The position numbers and the translations under genes were made by a program. A DNA stretch of 64,000 nt, taken from the NCBI GenBank assembly GCA_000092065.1, contig CP000596.1. One strand, given 5' to 3'. The notes below the pieces were generated by a model. It ran no database searches and had not been told where the DNA came from. It worked only from the letters and a program-made list of their open reading frames with translations. Below, piece after piece: positions 54,626 to 64,000 of this stretch; position 1 is the first letter of the stretch; each line of letters opens with the position of its first letter. This stretch comes from Ostreococcus lucimarinus. Lineage: Eukaryota.

Positions 54626-55624
54626 ATGGGTCGCAAGAAATCCTCCTCCGTCGCCGCCGACGCCTCCAGGGACGTCCCCGCGCACTTAGTCACGACCGAG
54701 ATCGACGTCACGGCGCTCACGTACGAAGAAATCCAAGCGCGACATCGCGAGCAGCTCGAAGAAATCGAATCGCTCGTGACGAAACTTTACGGCGCGACGC
54801 CGGGGAAGAAAGACAAGGAAAAGGCCATGCGCGCCGTCGGTGTGGTGAGCGATAGACATTATCAAGAGATGATGGCGTGGGAAGACGCGAACGAGGCGTC
54901 GGAGGCGAACGAGACGAGCGATGGGGAAGCGGACGCGAACGCGGCGGCGGCGGCGCTGCGCGACCAGGCGACGCTGACGAACGACGACGACGATGACGAG
55001 AAGGAGGCGAAGGAAAGCGATGAAAGCGAGAAGCAAAAGAAGCCGTCCAAGGCGATGGCGCGCAAAGCGAAGCGTGCGGCGGAGGAAGCGGCGAGAGAGG
55101 CGAGGATCGCGGCGGAAAAGGCGGCGCTGGGACCGAGCGCTCAGGCGATGGAGAGCGAAGTCTTGAGGTCGAGATTAGCCCCGCTCGGGTTGCGCGTGAA
55201 AGAAATACGCGCTGATGGCCACTGCTTGTATCGCTCGATCGATGATCAGCTGGTCAAGGTGACGGGGTCGGGGCACGAGGGCGGATACGAGGGGTTGCGC
55301 GCGACGTGCGCGGCGACGATGAGAGACGACGAGGATTCGTTTCGACCATTCATCGGCGATTGCGCCGAACAAACGCCCGAGGCGGACGAACGGTGGCGAG
55401 CGTACGTGCGCGAAGTCGAGAGTACGGCGACTTGGGGAGGTCAGTTGGAGATCATGGCGCTTTCGAAAGCGTTGCGGCGGCGGATCCAGGTGTTTAGCGC
55501 GACGATGCCCGTCGTAGTCATGGGCGAAGACTTTGACGAGGACGGCGCGCTGCGCGTGGCGTACCATCGGCACGCGTTCGGTTTGGGCGAGCACTACAAT
55601 AGCGTGGAAGACGACAAGAAATAA
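54626..55624 (+). CDS. OTUD6B: OTU-domain deubiquitinase (OTUD6B-like) with N-terminal coiled coil
   Basis: 332 aa. Catalytic Cys box IRADGHCLYRSIDDQL. His box RVAYHRHAFGLGEHYNSV. Confidence 0.8.
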   Translation: MGRKKSSSVAADASRDVPAHLVTTEIDVTALTYEEIQARHREQLEEIESLVTKLYGATPGKKDKEKAMRAVGVVSDRHYQEMMAWEDANEASEANETSDGEADANAAAAALRDQATLTNDDDDDEKEAKESDESEKQKKPSKAMARKAKRAAEEAAREARIAAEKAALGPSAQAMESEVLRSRLAPLGLRVKEIRADGHCLYRSIDDQLVKVTGSGHEGGYEGLRATCAATMRDDEDSFRPFIGDCAEQTPEADERWRAYVREVESTATWGGQLEIMALSKALRRRIQVFSATMPVVVMGEDFDEDGALRVAYHRHAFGLGEHYNSVEDDKK

Positions 55625-55669: not shown

Positions 55670-57100
55670 TCAGTTCATGCCCGTCCCGTGCGCGATCAGC
55701 CCTAGGAGTCCGCCGAGGACGACGACCAACGGGGCCTGGATCAGCGTCCACGTTCCCCTTGGCAACTTGACGACGTGCACGCAAAACGTGCAAATCATTC
55801 CGATGCACACGGTAGCGTTCGGAAACGGACTCAGAGATTTGACCTTGAACGCGATGTTGAACGCGGCGGCGACGACGAGTCCGACGGCTGACGCATTCAG
55901 TCCGGGCAGAGCGCGTCTGTAGACGCGCCATTTTCGAAATTTCCCCCAGAACGGAAGCACGGCGAAGATGAGAATCACGCCCGGACCGAACAACCCGAAC
56001 CACGCGCACATGATGCCGACGACGACGTTCACGCCCGCGCGTCGCGCGGCGACGGCGCCGAGGTACGCGCTGAGATTAAACAACGGCCCCGGCATGGCTT
56101 GCGCCATGGCTAAACCGGCGAAAAACTGTTCTTCGGTGACCCAAGACGTGAGCGACTCGCTTCTGACGCAACTCGTCGCGCCACTCGCGATCGAGCACGT
56201 CGTTTCGTACTGCACGACGTCGTTCAACAACAGCGGAAGCACGACTTGACCGCCGCCGAAGATGATCGAACCCGTGCGCCAAAACGCCTCGAACCAATGC
56301 AACTCCTTATTCGACGCGTAATCCGTCTTCGACACCGCGATCCCGAGCGCGACGAGCGCGACGATCCACCCCACGATCAAGCACCCCCCGACCGCGGGCG
56401 TGAGACCGAGATGCGCCACCTCCTCCGCGTCTTCGTCTCCGCTCGCGTCCTCCCTCGCGCCGCGCGTCTCGCCGTCCTCCTTTTTCGCCCACCTCTCCCG
56501 CGCGCGCGCCTCGCACGTCGTCGCGCATCCCCCGAACGCGATCAACGCCGGAAACAACCACGCCGTCTGACGATAACACGCCACCACCGCGCTCGTCGCG
56601 CACAAAACCTTCGTCGTCGCCGTCTTCGCCCGCGACCGCGTCAGCGACGCCGCCGCCGACGCGATCAACCCCGCGCCCGCCGCCGACAGCCCCCCCGCGA
56701 GCGCTCGAAGCGTTTGTCCTGGATTCACCAGCGTTTCCGCCGCGCCCGCGCCCGCGAGCGACATCAGCAGCAGTCCCGGATACTGAAACAGCGTCCCGCT
56801 CAGCGCGCCCCCCGCGACGCCGCCCCTCGCGATCCCGATCGCGAACGACATCTGCGTCGACGTCGGTCCCGGCAGGCACTGCCCGAGCGCCAGCAGCTCC
56901 GCGAACGTCCCGCTCGTCATCCACGGCCGCGGAGCGCGCTTCACGAAGGTTTCGTTGAAGAGCGCGACGTGCGCGGCGGGACCGCCGAACGCGGTCCAGC
57001 CGAGCAAAGCGAACGACGACGCGATCTCGCGACGCGGCGACGGCGCGACGTAAGACGCGCGCTCCTCGTCGCCGTCTCGCGCGATCTCGCGGTGCGCCAT
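55670..57100 (-). CDS. Chromate-ion transporter (CHR/ChrA) family, duplicated-domain type
   Basis: 476 aa from ATG at 57100; the track ORF runs spuriously to 57745. ChrA signatures LGWTAFGGPAAHVALFNETFVKR and SIIFGGGQVVLPLL. About 10-12 TM helices. Confidence 0.8.
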   Translation of the reverse strand: MAHREIARDGDEERASYVAPSPRREIASSFALLGWTAFGGPAAHVALFNETFVKRAPRPWMTSGTFAELLALGQCLPGPTSTQMSFAIGIARGGVAGGALSGTLFQYPGLLLMSLAGAGAAETLVNPGQTLRALAGGLSAAGAGLIASAAASLTRSRAKTATTKVLCATSAVVACYRQTAWLFPALIAFGGCATTCEARARERWAKKEDGETRGAREDASGDEDAEEVAHLGLTPAVGGCLIVGWIVALVALGIAVSKTDYASNKELHWFEAFWRTGSIIFGGGQVVLPLLLNDVVQYETTCSIASGATSCVRSESLTSWVTEEQFFAGLAMAQAMPGPLFNLSAYLGAVAARRAGVNVVVGIMCAWFGLFGPGVILIFAVLPFWGKFRKWRVYRRALPGLNASAVGLVVAAAFNIAFKVKSLSPFPNATVCIGMICTFCVHVVKLPRGTWTLIQAPLVVVLGGLLGLIAHGTGMN

Positions 57101-57246: not shown

Positions 57247-58906
57247 ATGACGCGCGATGACGCCGACGGGGGCGCGCGGGATGATTTATACGACGCGCTC
57301 GGCGTCGCGCGGGACGCGACGAAGACGGAGGTGCGCGCGAGACGACGCGAGGACGACGCGACGAGGACGATGGATGCGTTTCGATGACGACCGCGTGGAT
57401 AGGGGAGGGGCGACGACGACGACTGACGGCGAGGCGCGACGACGGCGCGACGACGGCGCGGCGTAGGTGCGACGGGCGTATCGAAATTTGATCACGCGCG
57501 CGCATCCCGATAAGGGCGGAGACGCGGTGACGTTCGCGAGGATCCAACGCGCGTACGACGTGCTGAGCGACGACGCGAAGCGCGCGTCGTACGACGAGAC
57601 TGGGACGTTTGAAAAGACGGTCGAAGAAGAATTGCTCGATGAATTCGGTGGAGGGGTGTTTCGCGATAAGATGAAGGAGGAGGAAGCGCGCAAGGAGTCT
57701 CTGGCCGAGGCGCTCGTGAAGACGGAGAAGGAGAAGGGGTCGCACACCGCCGGATTCGAAGCGTGGCTCCGAGCGCGCGGACCGGATTCGAACAAGACGA
57801 TCGGGGTCGAAGACATGATCGATCGATTCGGGGTGAACAAAGGTTCGTACGACGAAGTGGTGCTACCGAAGATTCGTGCGTACCAGGCGAGCGTCACAGC
57901 GGCGAACGCGATTAAATTGGGATCGGCGGCGATTCCTCCCACGCTCGAGTGGGGCGAGGTGCTCGTCAACGTGCGCGTCGCGCCGATTAATCCCGCCGAT
58001 ATCGACGCCAAGACGCTCGCTTCGCGCGCGAAATTCCCTTTCGTCGCTGGATCCGATGGTGTCGCCACCGTGGTGAAAGTCGGCGCGGGCGTGAAATCTC
58101 TCAACGAAGGCGATTGGGTGCTGCCGTACAAAGCCGAGATGGGCACGTGGCGCTCGCTCGCGGTGTGGAAGGAGAAGGACCTAATCAAGCTTCCTTCGGA
58201 CATTTTACCCATGGAATACGCGGCGATGATGCGTGAAATGTGCGTCGCGTACCGTTTACTGGAAGACTTCGGAAGCTTGAAACCGGGAGACGCCGTGGTG
58301 CTCAACGCCGCGACGTCCACCGTCGGTCAGTGCGTCGTGCAACTGTGCGCCATGCTCAAGCTTCGCGCCGTCGCCGTCGTGCGCTCGCGGAAAGATTTCG
58401 ACAAGACGGCGGCGTGGTTGAAATCACTCGGCGCTTCGGAGGTGTTGAAAGATGAAGGCTCGATCGCGACCGAGCTCACGTCGCGAAACTTGTTCGCCAA
58501 GCCGAGACTGGCGCTCGACGCCGTCGGCGGCGCCTCGGCGGTGCGTCTCGCCGAATCCCTCCAACCCGGTTGTCCGCTCATCGTCTACGGCAACATGAGC
58601 GGTCGCGCGGCGACGTTCCCATGGCACGCCTGGACGCAATCCGCACTCATCGTTCGCGGGTTCTCGTTGCGCCAATGGATGACTGAAAACAAGAAAAAGG
58701 TGCCCAAGATGATGGAGACGCTCGGCAAGCTCGCGCGCGCCGACAAACTCGCGATTCAGTACACCGACTACGAACTCTCGAGCGAGTTCGAGGAGGCGCT
58801 CGAACACGCGCGCGAGGACGATCGATGCACCAAAGTACTGTTACGCGTGAACGATATCGGGACGACGTACGACAGCGCCGAAAACGCCGCCTCGCCGACG
58901 GCGTGA
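57247..58906 (+). CDS. J-domain fused to a mitochondrial-type trans-2-enoyl-CoA reductase (MECR/ETR1, MDR superfamily); exons 57247..57330 and 57467..58906
   Basis: Exon 1 encodes MTRDDADGGARDDLYDALGVARDATKTE. Phase-0 GTGCGC donor. Exon 2 continues the J-domain (VRRAYRNLITRAHPDKGGD...YDETG), has an acidic linker of about 75 aa, then a MECR-like enoyl reductase (VNVRVAPINPADID, GDWVLPYKAEMGTWRSLAV, LNAATSTVGQCVVQLCAMLKLRAVAVVRSR). 507 aa. Confidence 0.75.
57331..57466 (+). other. Intron in the J-domain region of the DnaJ-MECR gene (136 nt)
   Basis: Donor GTGCGC. ACTGAC at 57422-57427, 39 nt upstream of the TAG acceptor. Confidence 0.7.
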
Positions 58907-59131
58907 GCGGTCCCGCGACGGGCGTCTCGACTCGGGCGACGGCGACCGCGCGGGCGAGACGAGACGAGACTATTCAGGGACGAAGACTACACGAATAAAT
59001 GCACGAAACTGTAATGATAATATTTCATCCTCAGTTCCTAAACTGCGGCGACCTATCGCGTCGCCTCTTCAAAGCGCGTACGTACCGAGCGTCGACGCTC
59101 GATGGCGTCGTCCTCGCTTCGCGGCGCGCGT

Positions 59132-59857
59132 TTAGTAGAGTTCTTCCTCCATGTGCGTCTTGACCGTGCAGTCCGACGTCGGGTACGCGACGCACGTGAG
59201 CACGAAGCCGTTACCCATTTGGTCGTCGTCCAAGAAAGATTGGTCGGATTGGTCGATGGAACCAGCCTGCGCGCGATCGTCTCGTCAGTCTCGTCATCCA
59301 GAAACGTCCCATCGTCGGTTCGCGACTCGTCGAGAGTCCCTCGCGGGCGAGTGACGTCAACGTACCGTGACCTTACCCGCGCACGACGAGCATGCGCCCG
59401 CGCGGCACGAGTACGGCAAGTCGATGCCGGCTTCCTGCGCGCGTCGCAAAAGAAATCACCCCTCCGTCAGTCTCGCGCCCTCGCGACGCCCGCGCGTTCG
59501 CGCGCGACGCGCCCGACGCGCATCGCGTCGATCGCCCGATCGTTGGGCGGCGCCGCGTCAGCGTCGCGCGACGCGATTCGCCCCCGTTCCCGCGCGCGCG
59601 ACGCCGCGCGCGACGCCGCGCGCGTCGCGACCCGACGATTAAAAATTCGCTCGAGCGTTTCGCGCACTCACCTCAGCGGCGTCGAGGATGTACGTGTCGT
59701 CCGCGCACTCGATCGCTTGCGCCCCCTCCGGGGTTTCGAGCGTGACCTGGAAGCGCGCGATCGTCGATCGGCGCGCGACGGCGGCGGAGGATCGGCGCGC
59801 GCCCGCGAAGGACGCGACGGGGGCGGCGGTGACGGACATCTTCGTGACGGCGGACAT
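59132..59857 (-). CDS. PETF: Plant-type [2Fe-2S] ferredoxin with transit peptide; three exons: 59672..59857, 59366..59434 and 59132..59266
   Basis: Exon 1 encodes [62 protein letters not shown], donor GTGAGT. Exon 2 encodes [23 protein letters not shown], donor GTACGT. Exon 3 encodes [44 protein letters not shown], then a stop. 129 aa. All four Fe-S cysteines are present. Confidence 0.85.
59267..59365 (-). other. Ferredoxin intron 2 (99 nt)
   Basis: GTACGT donor. gACTGAC about 17 nt upstream of the CAG acceptor. Confidence 0.8.
59435..59671 (-). other. Ferredoxin intron 1 (237 nt)
   Basis: GTGAGT donor. agACTGAC 34 nt upstream of the CAG acceptor. Confidence 0.8.
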
Positions 59858-60708: not shown

Positions 60709-63700
60709 CTAGATTCCGATCCGATCGACGACGGCGCGGGAATCGAAGAATGATGCCAAGGCGGTGGAGAGCGGTGCGCGGTGCGCGCTTCGGATGGCGT
60801 CGATGGCGTGGGGGGCGATTTGGGCGACGACGTCGGCGTCGGCGAAATCGACGAGGGACGCCAACGCGCGCGCGGCGAGACGCTCTCGCGTCGGCGTGAG
60901 GGCGTTGGAGCGTAAACACGCATCACCGTCGCGCGTGTTTTCTTTGTCGCTCTCGCGCGCTTCTCGGTGGATGACTAAGCATCGCGACGCGTGTTCCACG
61001 AGGCGCTCTCTCGCGTCGACGTCGCCTCGCAACGCTCGTAAAAGCGCGTCGCCGGCGGCAAACTCGAGACGAGACAACGTCCCGAGAGATCCTTCGGCGT
61101 CGTTTTCTTCTCTCGCGAACGCGTAGGCGTCGGTGATGATGTCCACGAGTTCCGAGCGCGCGCTCTCCGGAACGCCGACGACGCCTCGCAAATCGGCGCA
61201 CGCAGCGACGCACGCGAGCGAGCGACTCACGACATCGCTCGCGTTCGGTAAGTCGAGCATGACGACGTCTACGACGACGCCGTACCGCAGAACTTTGCAA
61301 ATCGCACGCCAAGTGTCCACAGAAGAGTCACCGCGAGCTATGACGACGTCCATCGCCGAGCGCGTCGCCGCGAGCGCGTCGGGAATCGCTCGAGGCGCGG
61401 CGGCGCGCAAGACGTTCGTCACGAAGGACCAAATCGCCGGTAGCAACGCGTCGTAGGCTGATTTTTTGTCGCGCACGAGCGCGATCAGGCGTGGAAGAAT
61501 GAGATCCAACGCCCGCGTGGCGTCGAGCTTGGTCTCCAATAAGCCCTCGACCGCTCCAGCGCGCGCCACCCCCCACGCCTCGGCGCTCAGTCGCTCGACG
61601 TCGTCGTCTTCGAGAACGCGGAACAACGCGTCGAGAGCGCGATCGTCTTCGCGCGCGAGCGCGCCGATAGTTTCGCACGTTGCCGCCCAAGTCGTCTTCA
61701 ACCACGCGTTCGCGTCCTCGTCGCCCATGGCGAGTCCTCGGCGGCACGCCGCGGCGATCGTCGCAACGGCGCGTCGCGGCGGCGAATCCTCGTCGTCCGA
61801 GCCAGCGCTCGCGCGTCGTCGGCGTCGCGCGAACGTCCCGAGCAAGCACATCGCTCGTGGGACGCACGCAAGCGGTAGGCCGAGGTAGTCGTCGTCGTCC
61901 TCCGTCGCCACCTTCGACGCGCTGTCGCCATTTTTTTCCAACGCCGCGGCCAGCGCCTTCTCCAACGCCTCGCACGCCGCGGCTTCCGCATCTCCCAAAG
62001 CGACATCGCTCGACGAACCGTCACCGTACACGTGTTCGAGCACTTCTAACGCTGGATCCCAACCCAAATCCAGCGAGTCCCCGAATCGCTGGAGCGCTTG
62101 AGCGACGCACGACGAAATCAAATCTCTCGCGTGCGCGTTTGGGGCGTTTTCGATCGCCGCGACGAATGGCTTCATCGCGTCCACCTGCGTGGCCGAACGC
62201 GTCGCGCGCGCGCGTAAAAGCAACCTATTCGCCACTTGTCGTAGCGAATCTGTGGCGTGTAACACGACTTTATCGTCGGGGTGCTTCACGCTCTCCACCA
62301 GGTGTTCGGCGACGACGTTCCAAAGCTTGGACCACACCAGGCGCACGCGCGTCATATTCGTCGCCGCGACTTCGGTGAGACGTAGTAACGCCGACACGTT
62401 ACCGCCCGCACCGTCCCAGAGTTCATGACGAGATACTGTGGCGATGGCGGAGGCGTAGGCGATGATCTCATCGGAATCGAATCGAGTGCTCAACGCGAAT
62501 ACGCGCTCGATGGCTTCGCCGCCCGCGGTGGACAACCACTGCGTCACCGAAAGCTCCGCCGGGGTGAGCGCGTCGGGGCTAACATCGCCGCCCGATTGCG
62601 TCGCCGATTTCGATGACGCCACTAGTTCTTGCATGCGAAGCGGTGCACAAAAAATATCTTTCGCGCGCGCGGTATCGAAGGATACGCCGGCGCCGACGAC
62701 GGCGCGCAAGTTTTCCAACCGCGTCACCATTTCCAACACGCTCGCCCACGCCTGGACGCCGCCTAGATTGGATTCGCTCGCCGCGAGCTCGAGGAGCGTG
62801 CTCAAAGCTTCTTTACTCTGAGTTGCGATGCCTTCGCGGCGTCCAAACCCAGGAGCAGAGACTAAGAAGGTGCAGATATCGTCGCGCAACATCGGGAGTT
62901 GCAGTCGCGCCGCGAGCGACAGCATCGCTCTCGCGCCTTCGAGCGGCATCGCTGCGTGCGCTTCATCCGGGGCGGAGTCAAACGCGCTGGATAACGCGAT
63001 TAACATGCATTTCCCCGCCGCCTCGAGCATCGGTCGCGCCAAGCCTGGTTCGGAGGCTCGGACGAAGAGCGCGCTCGCGGCTTCGTCGCTCTCCTCGGCG
63101 TGCTTGAACATCGCCTTCGTGGACTTGAGTAACTCTACCGTTTCGTCGCTCGCCTCTTTGAGCGTAGATCGGTTCTTCCAGGGAGCTGCAAAGTTTAGTA
63201 CTTGCGCCATCGTCTTCTTCGCCCGCGCGTTATCGCCACCGTTCGCTTTGGTCGCCGTCGATGGCTCCGCGGCGTGCATTTTGATTTCCTCGGCAGTGAC
63301 GCGCGCGTAAATCGCGGCGACGGCTTCCACATCCAAATCTTTTGTCGCCTCGGCTGCGGTGGCCATGAGCACGAAATCACCTTCGCTCATCTTCATCGCG
63401 GCGTCTGTGAGGGGGTTGTGCGCATCCGTGTTCAACATGACGATCGCGAAGGCTAAGATGTACGCGGCGTCCGCGGACGGGTACGCCCCCGGATTGCACG
63501 CGCAAAACCTCGCCGCGAACGCCTCGACCAATCGATCAATCTTTTGTGCCTCCCCTGGGAGCTTGAACCCACCCAAAAACAAGCGCATGGCATCATCGAT
63601 GCTCATCGACGCAAAGTCGAATCTGTGGACGTACGCGCGCATGACGACGAGCGCGTCGGCGTCGGGCGAGCCGAGTAACTCGCCGATGGCGGCGGGCGCG

Positions 63701-64000
63701 ACGCGCGCGCTCGTCTTGCGCAAAAACTCCGCACACACATTTGGATCCTCCGAGCGCGCCGCGACTCTGAGCGTCTGCGTCGAAGGATCGACGTTGAAGG
63801 CTTCGACAGCCTTTTCCATGGAGGCCTTCGTCTTTTTCGCCTTTTGAAATCGTTCGGCTTCGGATTCCACCGCGGCGGACGGGGAATTTACACACGACGG
63901 CGACGACGGGGAGTCTGACGGCGACGTCGGAGCTGTCGCGATTTTTTCTTCGCGATGCGTCGGCGACGTGGGCGTGGAAGGTCCATCATCGCCGGCGACG
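60709..64000 (-). CDS. Sec7-domain ARF guanine-nucleotide exchange factor (BIG/GBF class), 5'-partial: continues beyond the window end
   Basis: Sec7 catalytic region KLPGEAQKIDRLVEAFAARFCACNPGAYPSADAAYILAFAIVMLNTDAHNP with the glutamate finger. About 950 aa of downstream HDS-like helical repeats. The frame stays open, with no in-frame ATG, from 63870 to base 64000. Confidence 0.8.
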   Translation of the reverse strand, partial: VAGDDGPSTPTSPTHREEKIATAPTSPSDSPSSPSCVNSPSAAVESEAERFQKAKKTKASMEKAVEAFNVDPSTQTLRVAARSEDPNVCAEFLRKTSARVAPAAIGELLGSPDADALVVMRAYVHRFDFASMSIDDAMRLFLGGFKLPGEAQKIDRLVEAFAARFCACNPGAYPSADAAYILAFAIVMLNTDAHNPLTDAAMKMSEGDFVLMATAAEATKDLDVEAVAAIYARVTAEEIKMHAAEPSTATKANGGDNARAKKTMAQVLNFAAPWKNRSTLKEASDETVELLKSTKAMFKHAEESDEAASALFVRASEPGLARPMLEAAGKCMLIALSSAFDSAPDEAHAAMPLEGARAMLSLAARLQLPMLRDDICTFLVSAPGFGRREGIATQSKEALSTLLELAASESNLGGVQAWASVLEMVTRLENLRAVVGAGVSFDTARAKDIFCAPLRMQELVASSKSATQSGGDVSPDALTPAELSVTQWLSTAGGEAIERVFALSTRFDSDEIIAYASAIATVSRHELWDGAGGNVSALLRLTEVAATNMTRVRLVWSKLWNVVAEHLVESVKHPDDKVVLHATDSLRQVANRLLLRARATRSATQVDAMKPFVAAIENAPNAHARDLISSCVAQALQRFGDSLDLGWDPALEVLEHVYGDGSSSDVALGDAEAAACEALEKALAAALEKNGDSASKVATEDDDDYLGLPLACVPRAMCLLGTFARRRRRASAGSDDEDSPPRRAVATIAAACRRGLAMGDEDANAWLKTTWAATCETIGALAREDDRALDALFRVLEDDDVERLSAEAWGVARAGAVEGLLETKLDATRALDLILPRLIALVRDKKSAYDALLPAIWSFVTNVLRAAAPRAIPDALAATRSAMDVVIARGDSSVDTWRAICKVLRYGVVVDVVMLDLPNASDVVSRSLACVAACADLRGVVGVPESARSELVDIITDAYAFAREENDAEGSLGTLSRLEFAAGDALLRALRGDVDARERLVEHASRCLVIHREARESDKENTRDGDACLRSNALTPTRERLAARALASLVDFADADVVAQIAPHAIDAIRSAHRAPLSTALASFFDSRAVVDRIGI

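What the first reader, a model, noticed from the sequence alone, without database searches (positions are those of the whole stretch)
57247..58906. J-domain fused in frame to a MECR-type trans-2-enoyl-CoA reductase
A complete DnaJ J-domain, split by an intron after DLYDALGVARDATKTE and carrying an intact HPD in HPDKGGD, is continuous through an acidic linker of about 75 aa into an enoyl reductase closely resembling mitochondrial MECR/Etr1 (mtFAS II). The J-domain has no mitochondrial presequence. I am not aware of a described J-domain-enoyl-reductase architecture. If real, it suggests Hsp70 recruitment to, or regulation of, mitochondrial fatty-acid and lipoate synthesis. Alternatively the MECR part is translated from an internal start (MIDRFGVNKG...).
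Basis: partly seen in the sequence, partly recalled or inferred. Interest (0 to 1): 0.65.

Follow-up and report, generated by a model that had tools for sequence, protein, structure and literature searches.

The report
Conserved J-domain protein with MECR-like domain
This is a real two-exon gene for an Hsp70 co-chaperone (J-domain) fused to a domain derived from the mitochondrial enoyl reductase MECR; the same fusion occurs from green algae to Toxoplasma and I found no paper on it, but it lacks MECR's catalytic residues and a mitochondrial address, so it is probably not a fatty-acid-synthesis enzyme.

Summary
Exon 1 (57247-57330), a 136-nt GT-AG intron and exon 2 (57467-58906) encode a 507-aa protein. 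It has a complete J-domain with HPD, a conserved linker and an MDR domain whose closest solved relative is human MECR (E 6e-53; TM 0.85-0.90).

The fusion is not an annotation accident. All three parts are under purifying selection. The intron position recurs in a Bathycoccus-like relative and in Picocystis, where a 497-aa spliced-form protein exists. The architecture is found across green algae, in Chromera and in coccidia including Toxoplasma, sometimes with an extra hydrolase-like or SAM domain.

The mtFAS/lipoate reading is not supported:
- There is no presequence.
- The ER domains form their own clade apart from canonical MECRs.
- The catalytic Tyr94 position holds Tyr in 10/34 clade members against 66/78 canonical, and it is absent here.
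- Trp311 is replaced, by Ser428 here.
- The NADPH motif is retained.

The best-conserved segment is an unannotated motif, GSHTAGFEAWLRARG.

Most likely this is a cytosolic class-C J-protein that uses a remodelled, NADPH-binding MECR-like domain as its specificity module. Ten literature searches found no description. Function is inferred, not shown.

The parts
57247..57330 (+). Exon 1: start codon, acidic 12-aa N-terminus, and helix I plus the start of helix II of the J-domain (MTRDDADGGARDDLYDALGVARDATKTE).
   Evidence: Orthologues have the same peptide contiguous with VRRAYRNL. Population variants fall only in codons 9-10.
57331..57466 (+). Intron, 136 nt, GT...AG, phase 0, with an ACTGAC branch-like motif at 57422-57427.
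   Evidence: There is a 1-nt indel polymorphism inside it at 57400 among 8 metagenome contigs. The same intron position is seen in a Bathycoccus-like relative (L013) and in Picocystis (P0021 against P0197).
57467..58906 (+). Exon 2: the rest of the J-domain, the linker, the MECR-like domain, the C-terminal tail and the TGA stop.
   Evidence: The 472-aa part of this ORF is found exactly in 813 blocks of public assemblies.
57283..57330 (+). J-domain, first part (aa 13-28).
   Evidence: Pfam PF00226 matches aa 13-71 over the full model, E 4.4e-18.
57467..57604 (+). J-domain, second part (aa 29-74), including HPD at 57503-57511.
   Evidence: The AF2 helices are confident.
57605..57736 (+). Linker, first part (aa 75-118): a G/F-like motif EEELLDEFGGGVFRD followed by a charged helix.
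   Evidence: Conserved across the family. AF2 predicts a long helix. No Pfam or PDB match.
57737..57784 (+). Family signature motif GSHTAGFEAWLRARGP (aa 119-134), the most conserved segment of the protein.
   Evidence: Mean conservation is 0.86 against 0.66 for the J-domain. It is present in green-algal, chromerid, coccidian and SAM-type members. AF2 gives it low pLDDT.
57833..58849 (+). MECR-like MDR domain (aa 151-489): GroES-like lobe plus Rossmann lobe.
   Evidence: Pfam ADH_N and ADH_zinc_N. Human MECR E 6e-53. Foldseek TMt 0.85-0.90. pLDDT above 90.
57995..58036 (+). Loop DIDAKTLASRAKFP (aa 205-218), where canonical MECR carries the catalytic Tyr (human QGNYG). There is no Tyr here and the loop is shortened.
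   Evidence: Alignments to human MECR and Etr1p. Column statistics. The role of the Tyr is from PMC9899272 and PMC10864336.
58304..58330 (+). Retained dinucleotide-binding motif NAATSTVGQ (aa 308-316).
   Evidence: It aligns with human NASNSGVGQ and is conserved in both the J-clade and canonical MECRs.
58664..58666 (+). Ser428 at the position of MECR Trp311 / Etr1p Trp322 (RGFSLRQW against RGFWLSQW).
   Evidence: W in 62/78 canonical sequences against 3/34 in the J-clade.
58850..58870 (+). C-terminal motif NDIGTTY (aa 490-496). In most green-algal orthologues the protein ends here, as NDIGVTY.
59010..59014 (+). TGTAA, the only such pentamer on the + strand between 57000 and 59300, 104 nt after the stop. 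It is a candidate poly(A) signal.
   Evidence: That TGTAA is the green-algal poly(A) signal is my own background knowledge.

Best explanation
One nuclear gene of a marine Mamiellales-type green picoalga encodes a 507-aa, probably cytosolic, class-C J-domain co-chaperone. It belongs to an old and apparently unstudied eukaryotic family with the layout J-domain, conserved linker with the motif SHxxGFExW[LM]RxRG, then a MECR-derived MDR domain.

Shown here:
- the gene structure;
- the three-part architecture;
- conservation of that architecture in green algae, chromerids and coccidia;
- a separate clade for its ER domains;
- loss of MECR's catalytic Tyr and Trp, with retention of the NADPH-binding motif;
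- absence of any N-terminal extension.

Inferred:
- The HPD J-domain docks on cytosolic Hsp70 and triggers its ATPase.
- The MECR-like domain and the linker motif decide where or on what this happens, by binding NADP(H) and a ligand or partner protein.
- In this lineage the domain does not carry out the canonical Tyr-dependent enoyl-thioester reduction of mitochondrial FAS II.
For: Gene model and Pfam/PDB matches.

Purifying selection on all three parts, window against L001: pN 0.15-0.19 with pS 0.60-0.83.

The intron behaves as non-coding: a 1-nt indel polymorphism lies inside it, and exon 2 carries only one SNP, synonymous, in 1440 nt.

The same intron position occurs in L013 and in Picocystis, where the spliced-form protein P0197 (UniRef A0A7S3XDW2) exists.

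Uninterrupted J-ER ORFs occur on transcript-sized contigs L001, L002 and L011.

More than 35 full-length green-algal orthologues were aligned.

Non-green members:
- Chromera velia, with DnaJ + ER + Abhydrolase_2;
- Besnoitia, Hammondia, Neospora, Toxoplasma and Cystoisospora;
- DnaJ + ER + SAM forms.

NJ tree: all 30 sequences flagged for a J-domain or the motif fall in one clade of 34, with 78 canonical MECR-like sequences outside.

Active-site columns: Tyr94 is Y in 10/34 against 66/78. Trp311 is W in 3/34 against 62/78. The NADPH motif is kept in both groups.

Tyr94/Tyr79 is the catalytic residue according to PMC9899272 and PMC10864336.

Short acidic pre-J N-termini in the window protein and eight orthologues listed, and in the wider alignment.
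Against: - No transcript from this species was found. The exact 507-aa product is absent from the 15-billion-protein collection, and no spliced-junction match exists in JGI contigs.
- In a Bathycoccus-like relative, an MMETSP transcript ORF (P0165) starts inside the intron. Unspliced or intron-initiated isoforms that lack J-domain helix I may therefore exist.
- The strongly conserved NADPH motif and substrate-lobe residues, and the retention of Tyr in core chlorophytes, fit an active oxidoreductase as well as a sensor or adaptor.
- Localisation was judged by inspecting N-termini, not by a predictor or an experiment.
- Whether the same genome has a canonical MECR paralogue was not tested.
Confidence: 0.55

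Rival explanations
1. The MECR-like domain is still an active NADPH-dependent ene-reductase, working in the cytosol on a substrate other than acyl-ACP (for example an enoyl-CoA, a 2-alkenal or enone, or a protein-bound thioester). It would use a different proton source. The J-domain would couple this enzyme to Hsp70.
For: - The NADPH-binding motif N[AG]xNSxVGQ is conserved throughout the clade.
- The ER domain is under purifying selection and folds confidently.
- Core chlorophyte members keep a Tyr in the catalytic column.
- In chromerid and related alveolate-type members the domain is followed by a Phospholipase/Carboxylesterase-type hydrolase domain (Pfam-detected in P0250, P0241 and P0245; seen only by sequence resemblance in coccidia). 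This hints at acyl-ester or thioester chemistry.
- Many MDR quinone and alkenal reductases lack the MECR Tyr (my background knowledge; they appear as the next-best folds).
Against: - The Tyr is missing in most lineages, including this one.
- The Trp311 equivalent is replaced almost everywhere.
- The canonical [ST]VNPCT stretch that lines the acyl tunnel is replaced by M[ML]RE[ML]C.
- The hydrolase domain's GxSxG serine is itself lost in most alveolate members, which points toward non-catalytic use.
Confidence: 0.3
2. This is the organism's mitochondrial FAS II enoyl reductase, imported by an unconventional signal. The J-domain would recruit mitochondrial Hsp70 to fatty-acid and lipoate synthesis.
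For: Human MECR and Candida Etr1p are the closest solved relatives. Databases label orthologues 'enoyl-[acyl-carrier-protein] reductase'.
Against: - No presequence; the N-terminus is acidic in nearly all full-length orthologues.
- The ER domains form a clade separate from canonical MECRs.
- The catalytic Tyr and Trp are absent.
- A Haematococcus 'MECR' cloned with primers encoding MQACRHIA... and ...DMLSS does not show this family's ends. This hints that chlorophytes have a separate canonical enzyme. The hint is weak.
Confidence: 0.05
3. The fusion is an artefact of reading. Either there are two products (a short J-protein, and a reductase translated from the internal Met at aa 146), or exon 1 is not used and the protein has a truncated, non-functional J-domain.
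For: There is no transcript evidence in this species. Prokaryote-style gene callers start the ORF inside the J-domain. One MMETSP ORF in a relative starts in the intron.
Against: - The ORF is continuous with no stop or poly(A) signal between the parts.
- The linker upstream of the Met is constrained, and the Met is not conserved.
- Exon 1 is conserved in the population and across genera, with a conserved intron position.
- Full-length single ORFs occur in dozens of taxa, including NCBI gene models.
Confidence: 0.05

Closest known systems
Human MECR / Candida tropicalis Etr1p (mitochondrial 2-enoyl thioester reductase, MDR superfamily)
   Same: Same two-lobe MDR fold: TMt 0.85-0.90, 34-35% identity to human MECR and 24% to Etr1p. 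They share the NADPH motif NAxxSxVGQ and the second Trp of GFxLxxW.
   Different: - No presequence.
- An N-terminal J-domain plus a 76-aa conserved linker.
- Catalytic Tyr94/Tyr79 absent; Trp311/Trp322 replaced by Ser.
- The [ST]VNPCT stretch is replaced by MMREMC.
- An extra C-terminal NDIGxTY motif.
- A separate phylogenetic clade.
Class C (type III) J-domain proteins that carry an enzyme-like or redox domain, e.g. DnaJ-Fer of Viridiplantae and Thaumarchaeota (PMC3564930). ERdj5/DNAJC10 and Chlamydomonas CDJ3-5 are cited from my own knowledge.
   Same: An N-terminal J-domain with HPD is joined to a non-chaperone domain that presumably provides specificity. There is no class A/B zinc-finger or C-terminal client-binding domain.
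   Different: The partner domain here is a MECR-derived NADPH-binding MDR fold. No paper on such a combination was found.
Automatically annotated orthologues: Chloropicon primus 'trans-2-enoyl-CoA reductase' (P0016), Volvox carteri 'molecular chaperone' (P0060), Chromera velia A0A0G4GCB1 (P0250), Toxoplasma gondii 'DnaJ domain-containing protein' (P0391)
   Same: Same J-domain, the same SHxxGFExW[LM]RxR motif, and the same ER clade.
   Different: Chromerid members add a C-terminal Abhydrolase_2 domain, and the coccidian ones have a C-terminal region that resembles it but gave no Pfam hit. Another lineage adds a SAM domain. Core chlorophytes keep the Tyr that the window protein lacks.
Euglena gracilis complex I subunit NDUEG3 (PDB 8iuf chain E3)
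   Same: A MECR-like fold used outside FAS II (E 2.4e-25; Foldseek rank 13).
   Different: The match covers only the ER domain. A profile of the linker does not hit it.

Membership tests
J-domain proteins (Hsp40/DnaJ co-chaperones) | A complete J-domain of about 70 aa, matching the family profile above threshold. | tested here: met
   PF00226, 65.6 bits (cutoff 27.8), E 4.4e-18, model positions 1-63 of 63, aa 13-71 of the spliced product. AF2 gives confident helices.
J-domain proteins (Hsp40/DnaJ co-chaperones) | Invariant HPD tripeptide between helices II and III. | tested here: met
   HPD at aa 41-43 (57503-57511). H, P and D are invariant or nearly invariant across 45 orthologues.
J-domain proteins (Hsp40/DnaJ co-chaperones) | Stimulates Hsp70 ATPase. 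| not testable with these tools
   Requires biochemistry.
Class A/B J-proteins | Long G/F region followed by a zinc-finger and/or DnaJ C-terminal client-binding domains. | tested here: not met
   No DnaJ_C or DnaJ_CXXCXGXG Pfam hits; there is only a short FGGGxFRD motif. The protein is therefore class C.
MECR/Etr1 mitochondrial 2-enoyl thioester reductase | MDR fold (GroES-like plus Rossmann lobes), with MECR as nearest relative. | tested here: met
MECR/Etr1 mitochondrial 2-enoyl thioester reductase | Catalytic tyrosine (human Tyr94, Etr1p Tyr79). | tested here: not met
   The loop is shortened and has no Tyr. The column is Y in 66/78 canonical sequences against 10/34 in the J-clade. Its role is from PMC9899272 and PMC10864336.
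MECR/Etr1 mitochondrial 2-enoyl thioester reductase | Active-site Trp (human Trp311, Etr1p Trp322) in GFW. | tested here: not met
   Ser428 in RGFSLRQW. W in 62/78 canonical sequences against 3/34 in the J-clade. That this Trp is an active-site residue rests on the 4w99 entry title and my own knowledge.
MECR/Etr1 mitochondrial 2-enoyl thioester reductase | NADPH-binding glycine-rich motif. | tested here: met
   NAATSTVGQ aligns with NASNSGVGQ. This is sequence evidence only; binding was not measured.
MECR/Etr1 mitochondrial 2-enoyl thioester reductase | N-terminal mitochondrial presequence and matrix location. | tested here: not met
   Twelve acidic residues (4 D/E, 2 K/R) precede the J-domain, and the pattern is the same in orthologues. 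This was judged by inspection; no targeting predictor was available.
MECR/Etr1 mitochondrial 2-enoyl thioester reductase | Groups with canonical MECRs in a phylogeny. | tested here: not met
   In an NJ tree of 112 ER domains the window sequence lies in the J-clade of 34, with 78 canonical sequences outside. The tree is distance-based and has no bootstrap.
MECR/Etr1 mitochondrial 2-enoyl thioester reductase | Reduces 2-enoyl-ACP/CoA and supports lipoylation. | not testable with these tools
   Requires an enzyme assay or complementation.
Unnamed J-domain / MECR-like family (green algae, chromerids, coccidia, others) | N-terminal J-domain, linker motif SHxxGFExW[LM]RxR[GN], and an ER domain of the J-clade with M[ML]RE[ML]C and GF[NS]LRxW. 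| tested here: met
   All are present in the window protein. The green-algal C-terminal NDIGxTY motif is also present.

The most novel reading that the evidence does not exclude
This would be an ancient Hsp70 co-chaperone family, present in green algae, chromerids, coccidian parasites including Toxoplasma, and at least one other lineage. It uses a catalytically remodelled MECR-like domain as an NADPH-sensing or acyl-thioester-sensing (or client-binding) module, and a highly conserved short motif (SHxxGFExWLRxRG) to engage an unknown partner. That would tie cytosolic Hsp70 action to redox or lipid state. The family would be a pseudoenzyme-type J-protein class that nobody has studied.
Probability: 0.3. 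Interest if true: 0.7.

Novelty: new variant of a known kind. Interest (0 to 1): 0.5.

Why it matters
J-domain proteins give Hsp70 its specificity, so each new client-defining domain marks a new cellular job for the chaperone. Three points make this family worth attention.

- A MECR-derived, NADPH-binding fold has been attached to a J-domain since before green algae and alveolates diverged, or was transferred between them. Its catalytic residues have since eroded while its cofactor motif was kept. That is the signature of a sensor or adaptor pseudoenzyme.
- Databases currently label many members 'enoyl-[acyl-carrier-protein] reductase'. That would mislead metabolic reconstructions of mitochondrial FAS and lipoate synthesis in picoalgae.
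- The family is tractable in Ostreococcus, Chlamydomonas and Toxoplasma, so its function can be tested directly.

Tried and rejected
I therefore modelled the 75%-identical full-length orthologue P0006 and the window's 479-aa exon-2 ORF instead.
2. A degenerate pattern for the spliced junction TKTE|VRRAYRNL gave 0 hits in JGI contigs. A looser pattern gave only a 66%-identical relative (L011) and an unrelated intron-containing locus (L012).
3. A profile search with 14 non-green members returned only the query, so that search was wasted.
4. The afdb50 fold library was unavailable.
5. The linker alone, and a 23-sequence linker profile, were searched against PDB. Only chance-level hits appeared (E 2 and 7.8).
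6. NCBIfam has nothing above its cutoffs.
7. I checked whether the intron is a repeated 'introner' element. There is no second copy in the window.
8. A Haematococcus 'MECR' overexpression paper (PMC10067919) looked like functional data for the family. Its cloning primers encode MQACRHIA... and ...DMLSS, which are not this family's ends, so I did not use it.
9. Ten literature searches found no description of the architecture.
10. I could not determine whether this organism also has a canonical MECR.
Full report
**Observation.** The region reads as the first-stage reader described.
- An ATG at 57247 opens a 28-codon exon (MTRDDADGGARDDLYDALGVARDATKTE) ending at 57330.
- A 136-nt GT...AG intron follows (57331-57466). 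It has an ACTGAC branch-like motif 37 nt before the acceptor, the same style as the two introns of the neighbouring ferredoxin gene.
- Exon 2 (57467-58906) continues VRRAYRNLITRAHPDKGGD... and stays open for 479 codons to a TGA.
- The spliced 507-aa product matches Pfam DnaJ over the whole model (aa 13-71, E 4.4e-18), plus ADH_N (191-271) and ADH_zinc_N (314-445).
- Its best solved relatives are human MECR (E 6e-53) and then Candida Etr1p (E about 1e-27).
- An AlphaFold2 model of the exon-2 ORF (pLDDT 84) superposes best on human MECR, with TM-score 0.85-0.90 on the target and 34-35% identity.

**Is the fusion real?** Several independent lines say yes.
- Selection. I compared the window with L001, a 75%-identical relative. 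Non-synonymous divergence is low and similar in the J-domain (pN 0.15), the linker (0.18) and the ER domain (0.16), while synonymous sites are near saturation (pS 0.60-0.83). That Met is also not conserved in orthologues.
- Population data. Among eight metagenome contigs of the same species, the intron carries a 1-nt indel. Exon 2 has a single synonymous SNP in 1440 nt. Exon 1 varies only in codons 9-10, before the J-domain.
- Intron position. The same phase-0 position, after the Glu that precedes [VI]RRAYRNL, is found in a Bathycoccus-like relative (L013...TSIE|GTATAC...AACAG|IRRAYR). It is also found in Picocystis, where the genomic read-through (P0021, 578 aa) and the spliced-form protein (P0197, UniRef A0A7S3XDW2, 497 aa) are both on record.
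- Uninterrupted ORFs. Complete J-to-ER ORFs lie on transcript-sized contigs of relatives: L001 and L002 at 75% identity, and L011 at 66%.
- Signals. No stop codon and no TGTAA lies between the two domains. The only TGTAA nearby is 104 nt after the stop.
- What is missing is a transcript from this species itself. The exact 507-aa product is not in the 15-billion-protein collection, and no junction-spanning contig was found.
- One caveat: an MMETSP transcript ORF of the Bathycoccus-like relative starts inside the intron (P0165). Unspliced or intron-initiated isoforms may therefore exist.

**How widespread is it?** The first search returned 189 clusters at E<=1e-10 (the best 120 listed), nearly all showing DnaJ + ADH_N/ADH_zinc_N. 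Those without a DnaJ hit that I inspected (for example P0004, P0069, P0078, P0084) are gene calls that start inside the J-domain.
- Named green members include Chloropicon, Pseudoscourfieldia, Picocystis, Micractinium, Chlorella, Auxenochlorella, Prototheca, Picochlorum, Pedinophyceae, Volvox, Gonium, Pleodorina, Tetradesmus, Cymbomonas, and the streptophyte algae Mesostigma and Chlorokybus. No land plant appeared among the named hits. I read this as probable absence from embryophytes, but that is an inference.
- An exhaustive HMMER scan of 1.84 billion representatives showed that the family is not confined to green algae.
- Chromera velia (A0A0G4GCB1, 934 aa) and two unnamed relatives have J + linker + ER followed by an Abhydrolase_2 (Phospholipase/Carboxylesterase) domain.
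- Another lineage has J + linker + ER + SAM.
- Besnoitia, Hammondia, Neospora, Toxoplasma gondii (989 aa, 'DnaJ domain-containing protein') and Cystoisospora carry the same J-domain, motif and ER domain with a C-terminal region that resembles the Abhydrolase_2 domain of the chromerid members but gave no Pfam hit.
- In a neighbour-joining tree of 112 ER domains, all 30 sequences that carry a J-domain or the linker motif fall in one clade of 34. The 78 canonical, 330-390-aa MECR-like sequences lie outside it. The tree is distance-based and has no bootstrap.

**What the 'linker' is.** It is charged (19 D/E and 13 K/R in 76 aa) but it is not a spacer.
- It starts with a short G/F-like motif, EEELLDEFGGGVFRD, followed by a charged helix.
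- It then has GSHTAGFEAWLRARG (aa 119-134). This is the most conserved segment of the whole protein: 0.86 mean majority fraction against 0.66 for the J-domain and 0.69 for the ER core.
- The motif is recognisable in chromerid, coccidian and SAM-type members.
- AlphaFold gives it a short helix at low confidence.
- It has no Pfam or PDB relative.
- High conservation combined with low monomer confidence is what one expects of a partner-binding or interface motif. This is my inference.

**Is the ER domain a MECR?** It is MECR-derived but does not pass the membership test.
- Published structures name Tyr94 (human) and Tyr79 (Etr1p) as the catalytic residue (PMC9899272, PMC10864336).
- In the window protein the corresponding loop (DIDAKTLASRAKFP, 57995-58036) is shortened and has no Tyr.
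- Across the tree, the Tyr column is Y in 66/78 canonical sequences but only 10/34 of the J-clade. Those ten include the core chlorophytes in the set; most prasinophyte, streptophyte-alga and alveolate members lack it.
- The GFW tryptophan (Trp311/Trp322) is W in 62/78 canonical sequences against 3/34 in the J-clade. It is Ser428 here.
- The canonical [ST]VNPCT stretch includes human Gly165, whose mutation shortens the acyl tunnel. It is replaced by M[ML]RE[ML]C.
- By contrast, the dinucleotide-binding motif (NAATSTVGQ) and the second Trp are kept in both groups.
- The alveolate hydrolase-like domain shows the same pattern. GxSxG is intact in Chromera (GFSLG) but degenerate in the others.

**Localisation.** In the window protein and in nearly all full-length orthologues, the J-domain starts 5-15 residues from an acidic N-terminus. 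The longer Volvox and Chlorokybus extensions also do not look like presequences. I ran no targeting predictor, so 'cytosolic' is an inference from the absence of any N-terminal extension, signal peptide or transmembrane segment visible by eye.

**Most likely mechanism.** Shown: the architecture, its conservation, the remodelled active site, the retained cofactor motif and the lack of a presequence. Inferred: the protein is a class-C J-domain co-chaperone. Its HPD J-domain activates cytosolic Hsp70. Its MECR-like domain (probably NADP(H)-bound, and possibly dimeric like MECR) and linker motif select the site or client.
- The main rival is that the domain is still an ene-reductase with a different substrate and proton donor. 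The conserved NADPH site, the Tyr in core chlorophytes and the fused esterase-type domain keep this rival alive.

**Comparison with what is known, and novelty.**
- The closest enzyme is MECR/Etr1. The closest functional analogues are class-C J-proteins that carry redox or enzyme-like domains, such as DnaJ-Fer (PMC3564930).
- Members of this family are in public databases under automatic names: 'trans-2-enoyl-CoA reductase', 'enoyl-[acyl-carrier-protein] reductase', 'J domain-containing protein' and 'molecular chaperone'.
- Ten full-text searches found no paper that describes or studies the architecture. The library lacks most subscription journals, so this is absence of evidence only.
- I rate it a new variant of a known kind: a J-protein with a previously undescribed specificity domain. 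Interest is moderate. The window gene itself is an ordinary orthologue of a conserved family, but the family is unstudied, widely distributed and currently mis-annotated as a metabolic enzyme.

**Source organism (inference).** GC content is about 60-67%. The ORF is identical in 813 blocks of marine metagenome assemblies. The nearest named relatives are prasinophytes. Together these point to an abundant Mamiellales picoalga, probably Ostreococcus-like. This was not verified.

Noticed in passing
window 59135-59857 (- strand): A plant-type [2Fe-2S] ferredoxin gene with a transit-peptide-like N-terminus, in three exons (about 59857-59672, 59434-59366, 59270-59135). Its introns are GTGAGT...CAG (237 nt) and GTACGT...CAG (105 nt). 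It converges on the J-ER gene with about 230 nt between the stop codons. The J-ER/ferredoxin pairing is conserved in L001 and L013.
   Followed up: partly
window 55670-57100 (- strand), 54626-55624 (+) and 60709-63870 (-): Neighbouring genes. A chromate-transporter-family gene is divergent from the J-ER gene, with about 150 nt between the start codons, which suggests a shared promoter region. There is also an OTU-domain ORF and a Sec7-domain GEF. The Pfam labels come from gene calls on identical metagenome contigs.
   Followed up: no
L001 1-1956 compared with window 57247-59445: The 75%-identical relative lacks both the J-gene intron and the ferredoxin intron present in the window. The contig is either an assembled pair of overlapping convergent transcripts or comes from an intron-poorer sister species. 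I could not tell which.
   Followed up: partly
L013 205-700; proteins P0163 and P0165: In the Bathycoccus-like relative the equivalent intron is about 395 nt. Both genome gene calls and an MMETSP transcript ORF begin inside it (MTHFLLPLYSLPLKNQ|QIRRAYRNL). This suggests intron retention or an internal transcription start in that species.
   Followed up: partly
proteins P0250, P0241, P0245, P0371, P0391: Alveolate members add a C-terminal Phospholipase/Carboxylesterase-type domain. Its GxSxG serine is intact only in Chromera (GFSLG) and is lost in the others (GFDQG, GFAHG, GSGEG). A second enzyme-like domain is apparently decaying in the same family.
   Followed up: partly
proteins P0259, P0269, P0282, P0385: A third architecture, J-domain + linker motif + ER + C-terminal SAM domain, comes from an unidentified GC-rich eukaryotic lineage. 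The taxon was not determined.
   Followed up: no
proteins P0008, P0069, P0078, P0084, P0163 (loop equivalent to window 57995-58036): The loop that should hold the catalytic Tyr is a hotspot for low-complexity insertions in Mamiellales relatives, including a poly-Gly run and 40-60-aa Ser/Ala/Asn-rich inserts. This fits relaxed constraint on that loop.
   Followed up: no
PDB 8iuf chain E3 (Euglena NDUEG3): A MECR-like subunit of Euglena complex I is the next-closest non-MECR relative of the ER domain (E 2.4e-25). Its ER part starts at about residue 194 of a 594-aa chain, an N-terminal extension similar in length to the one here. A profile of the linker does not detect it.
   Followed up: partly
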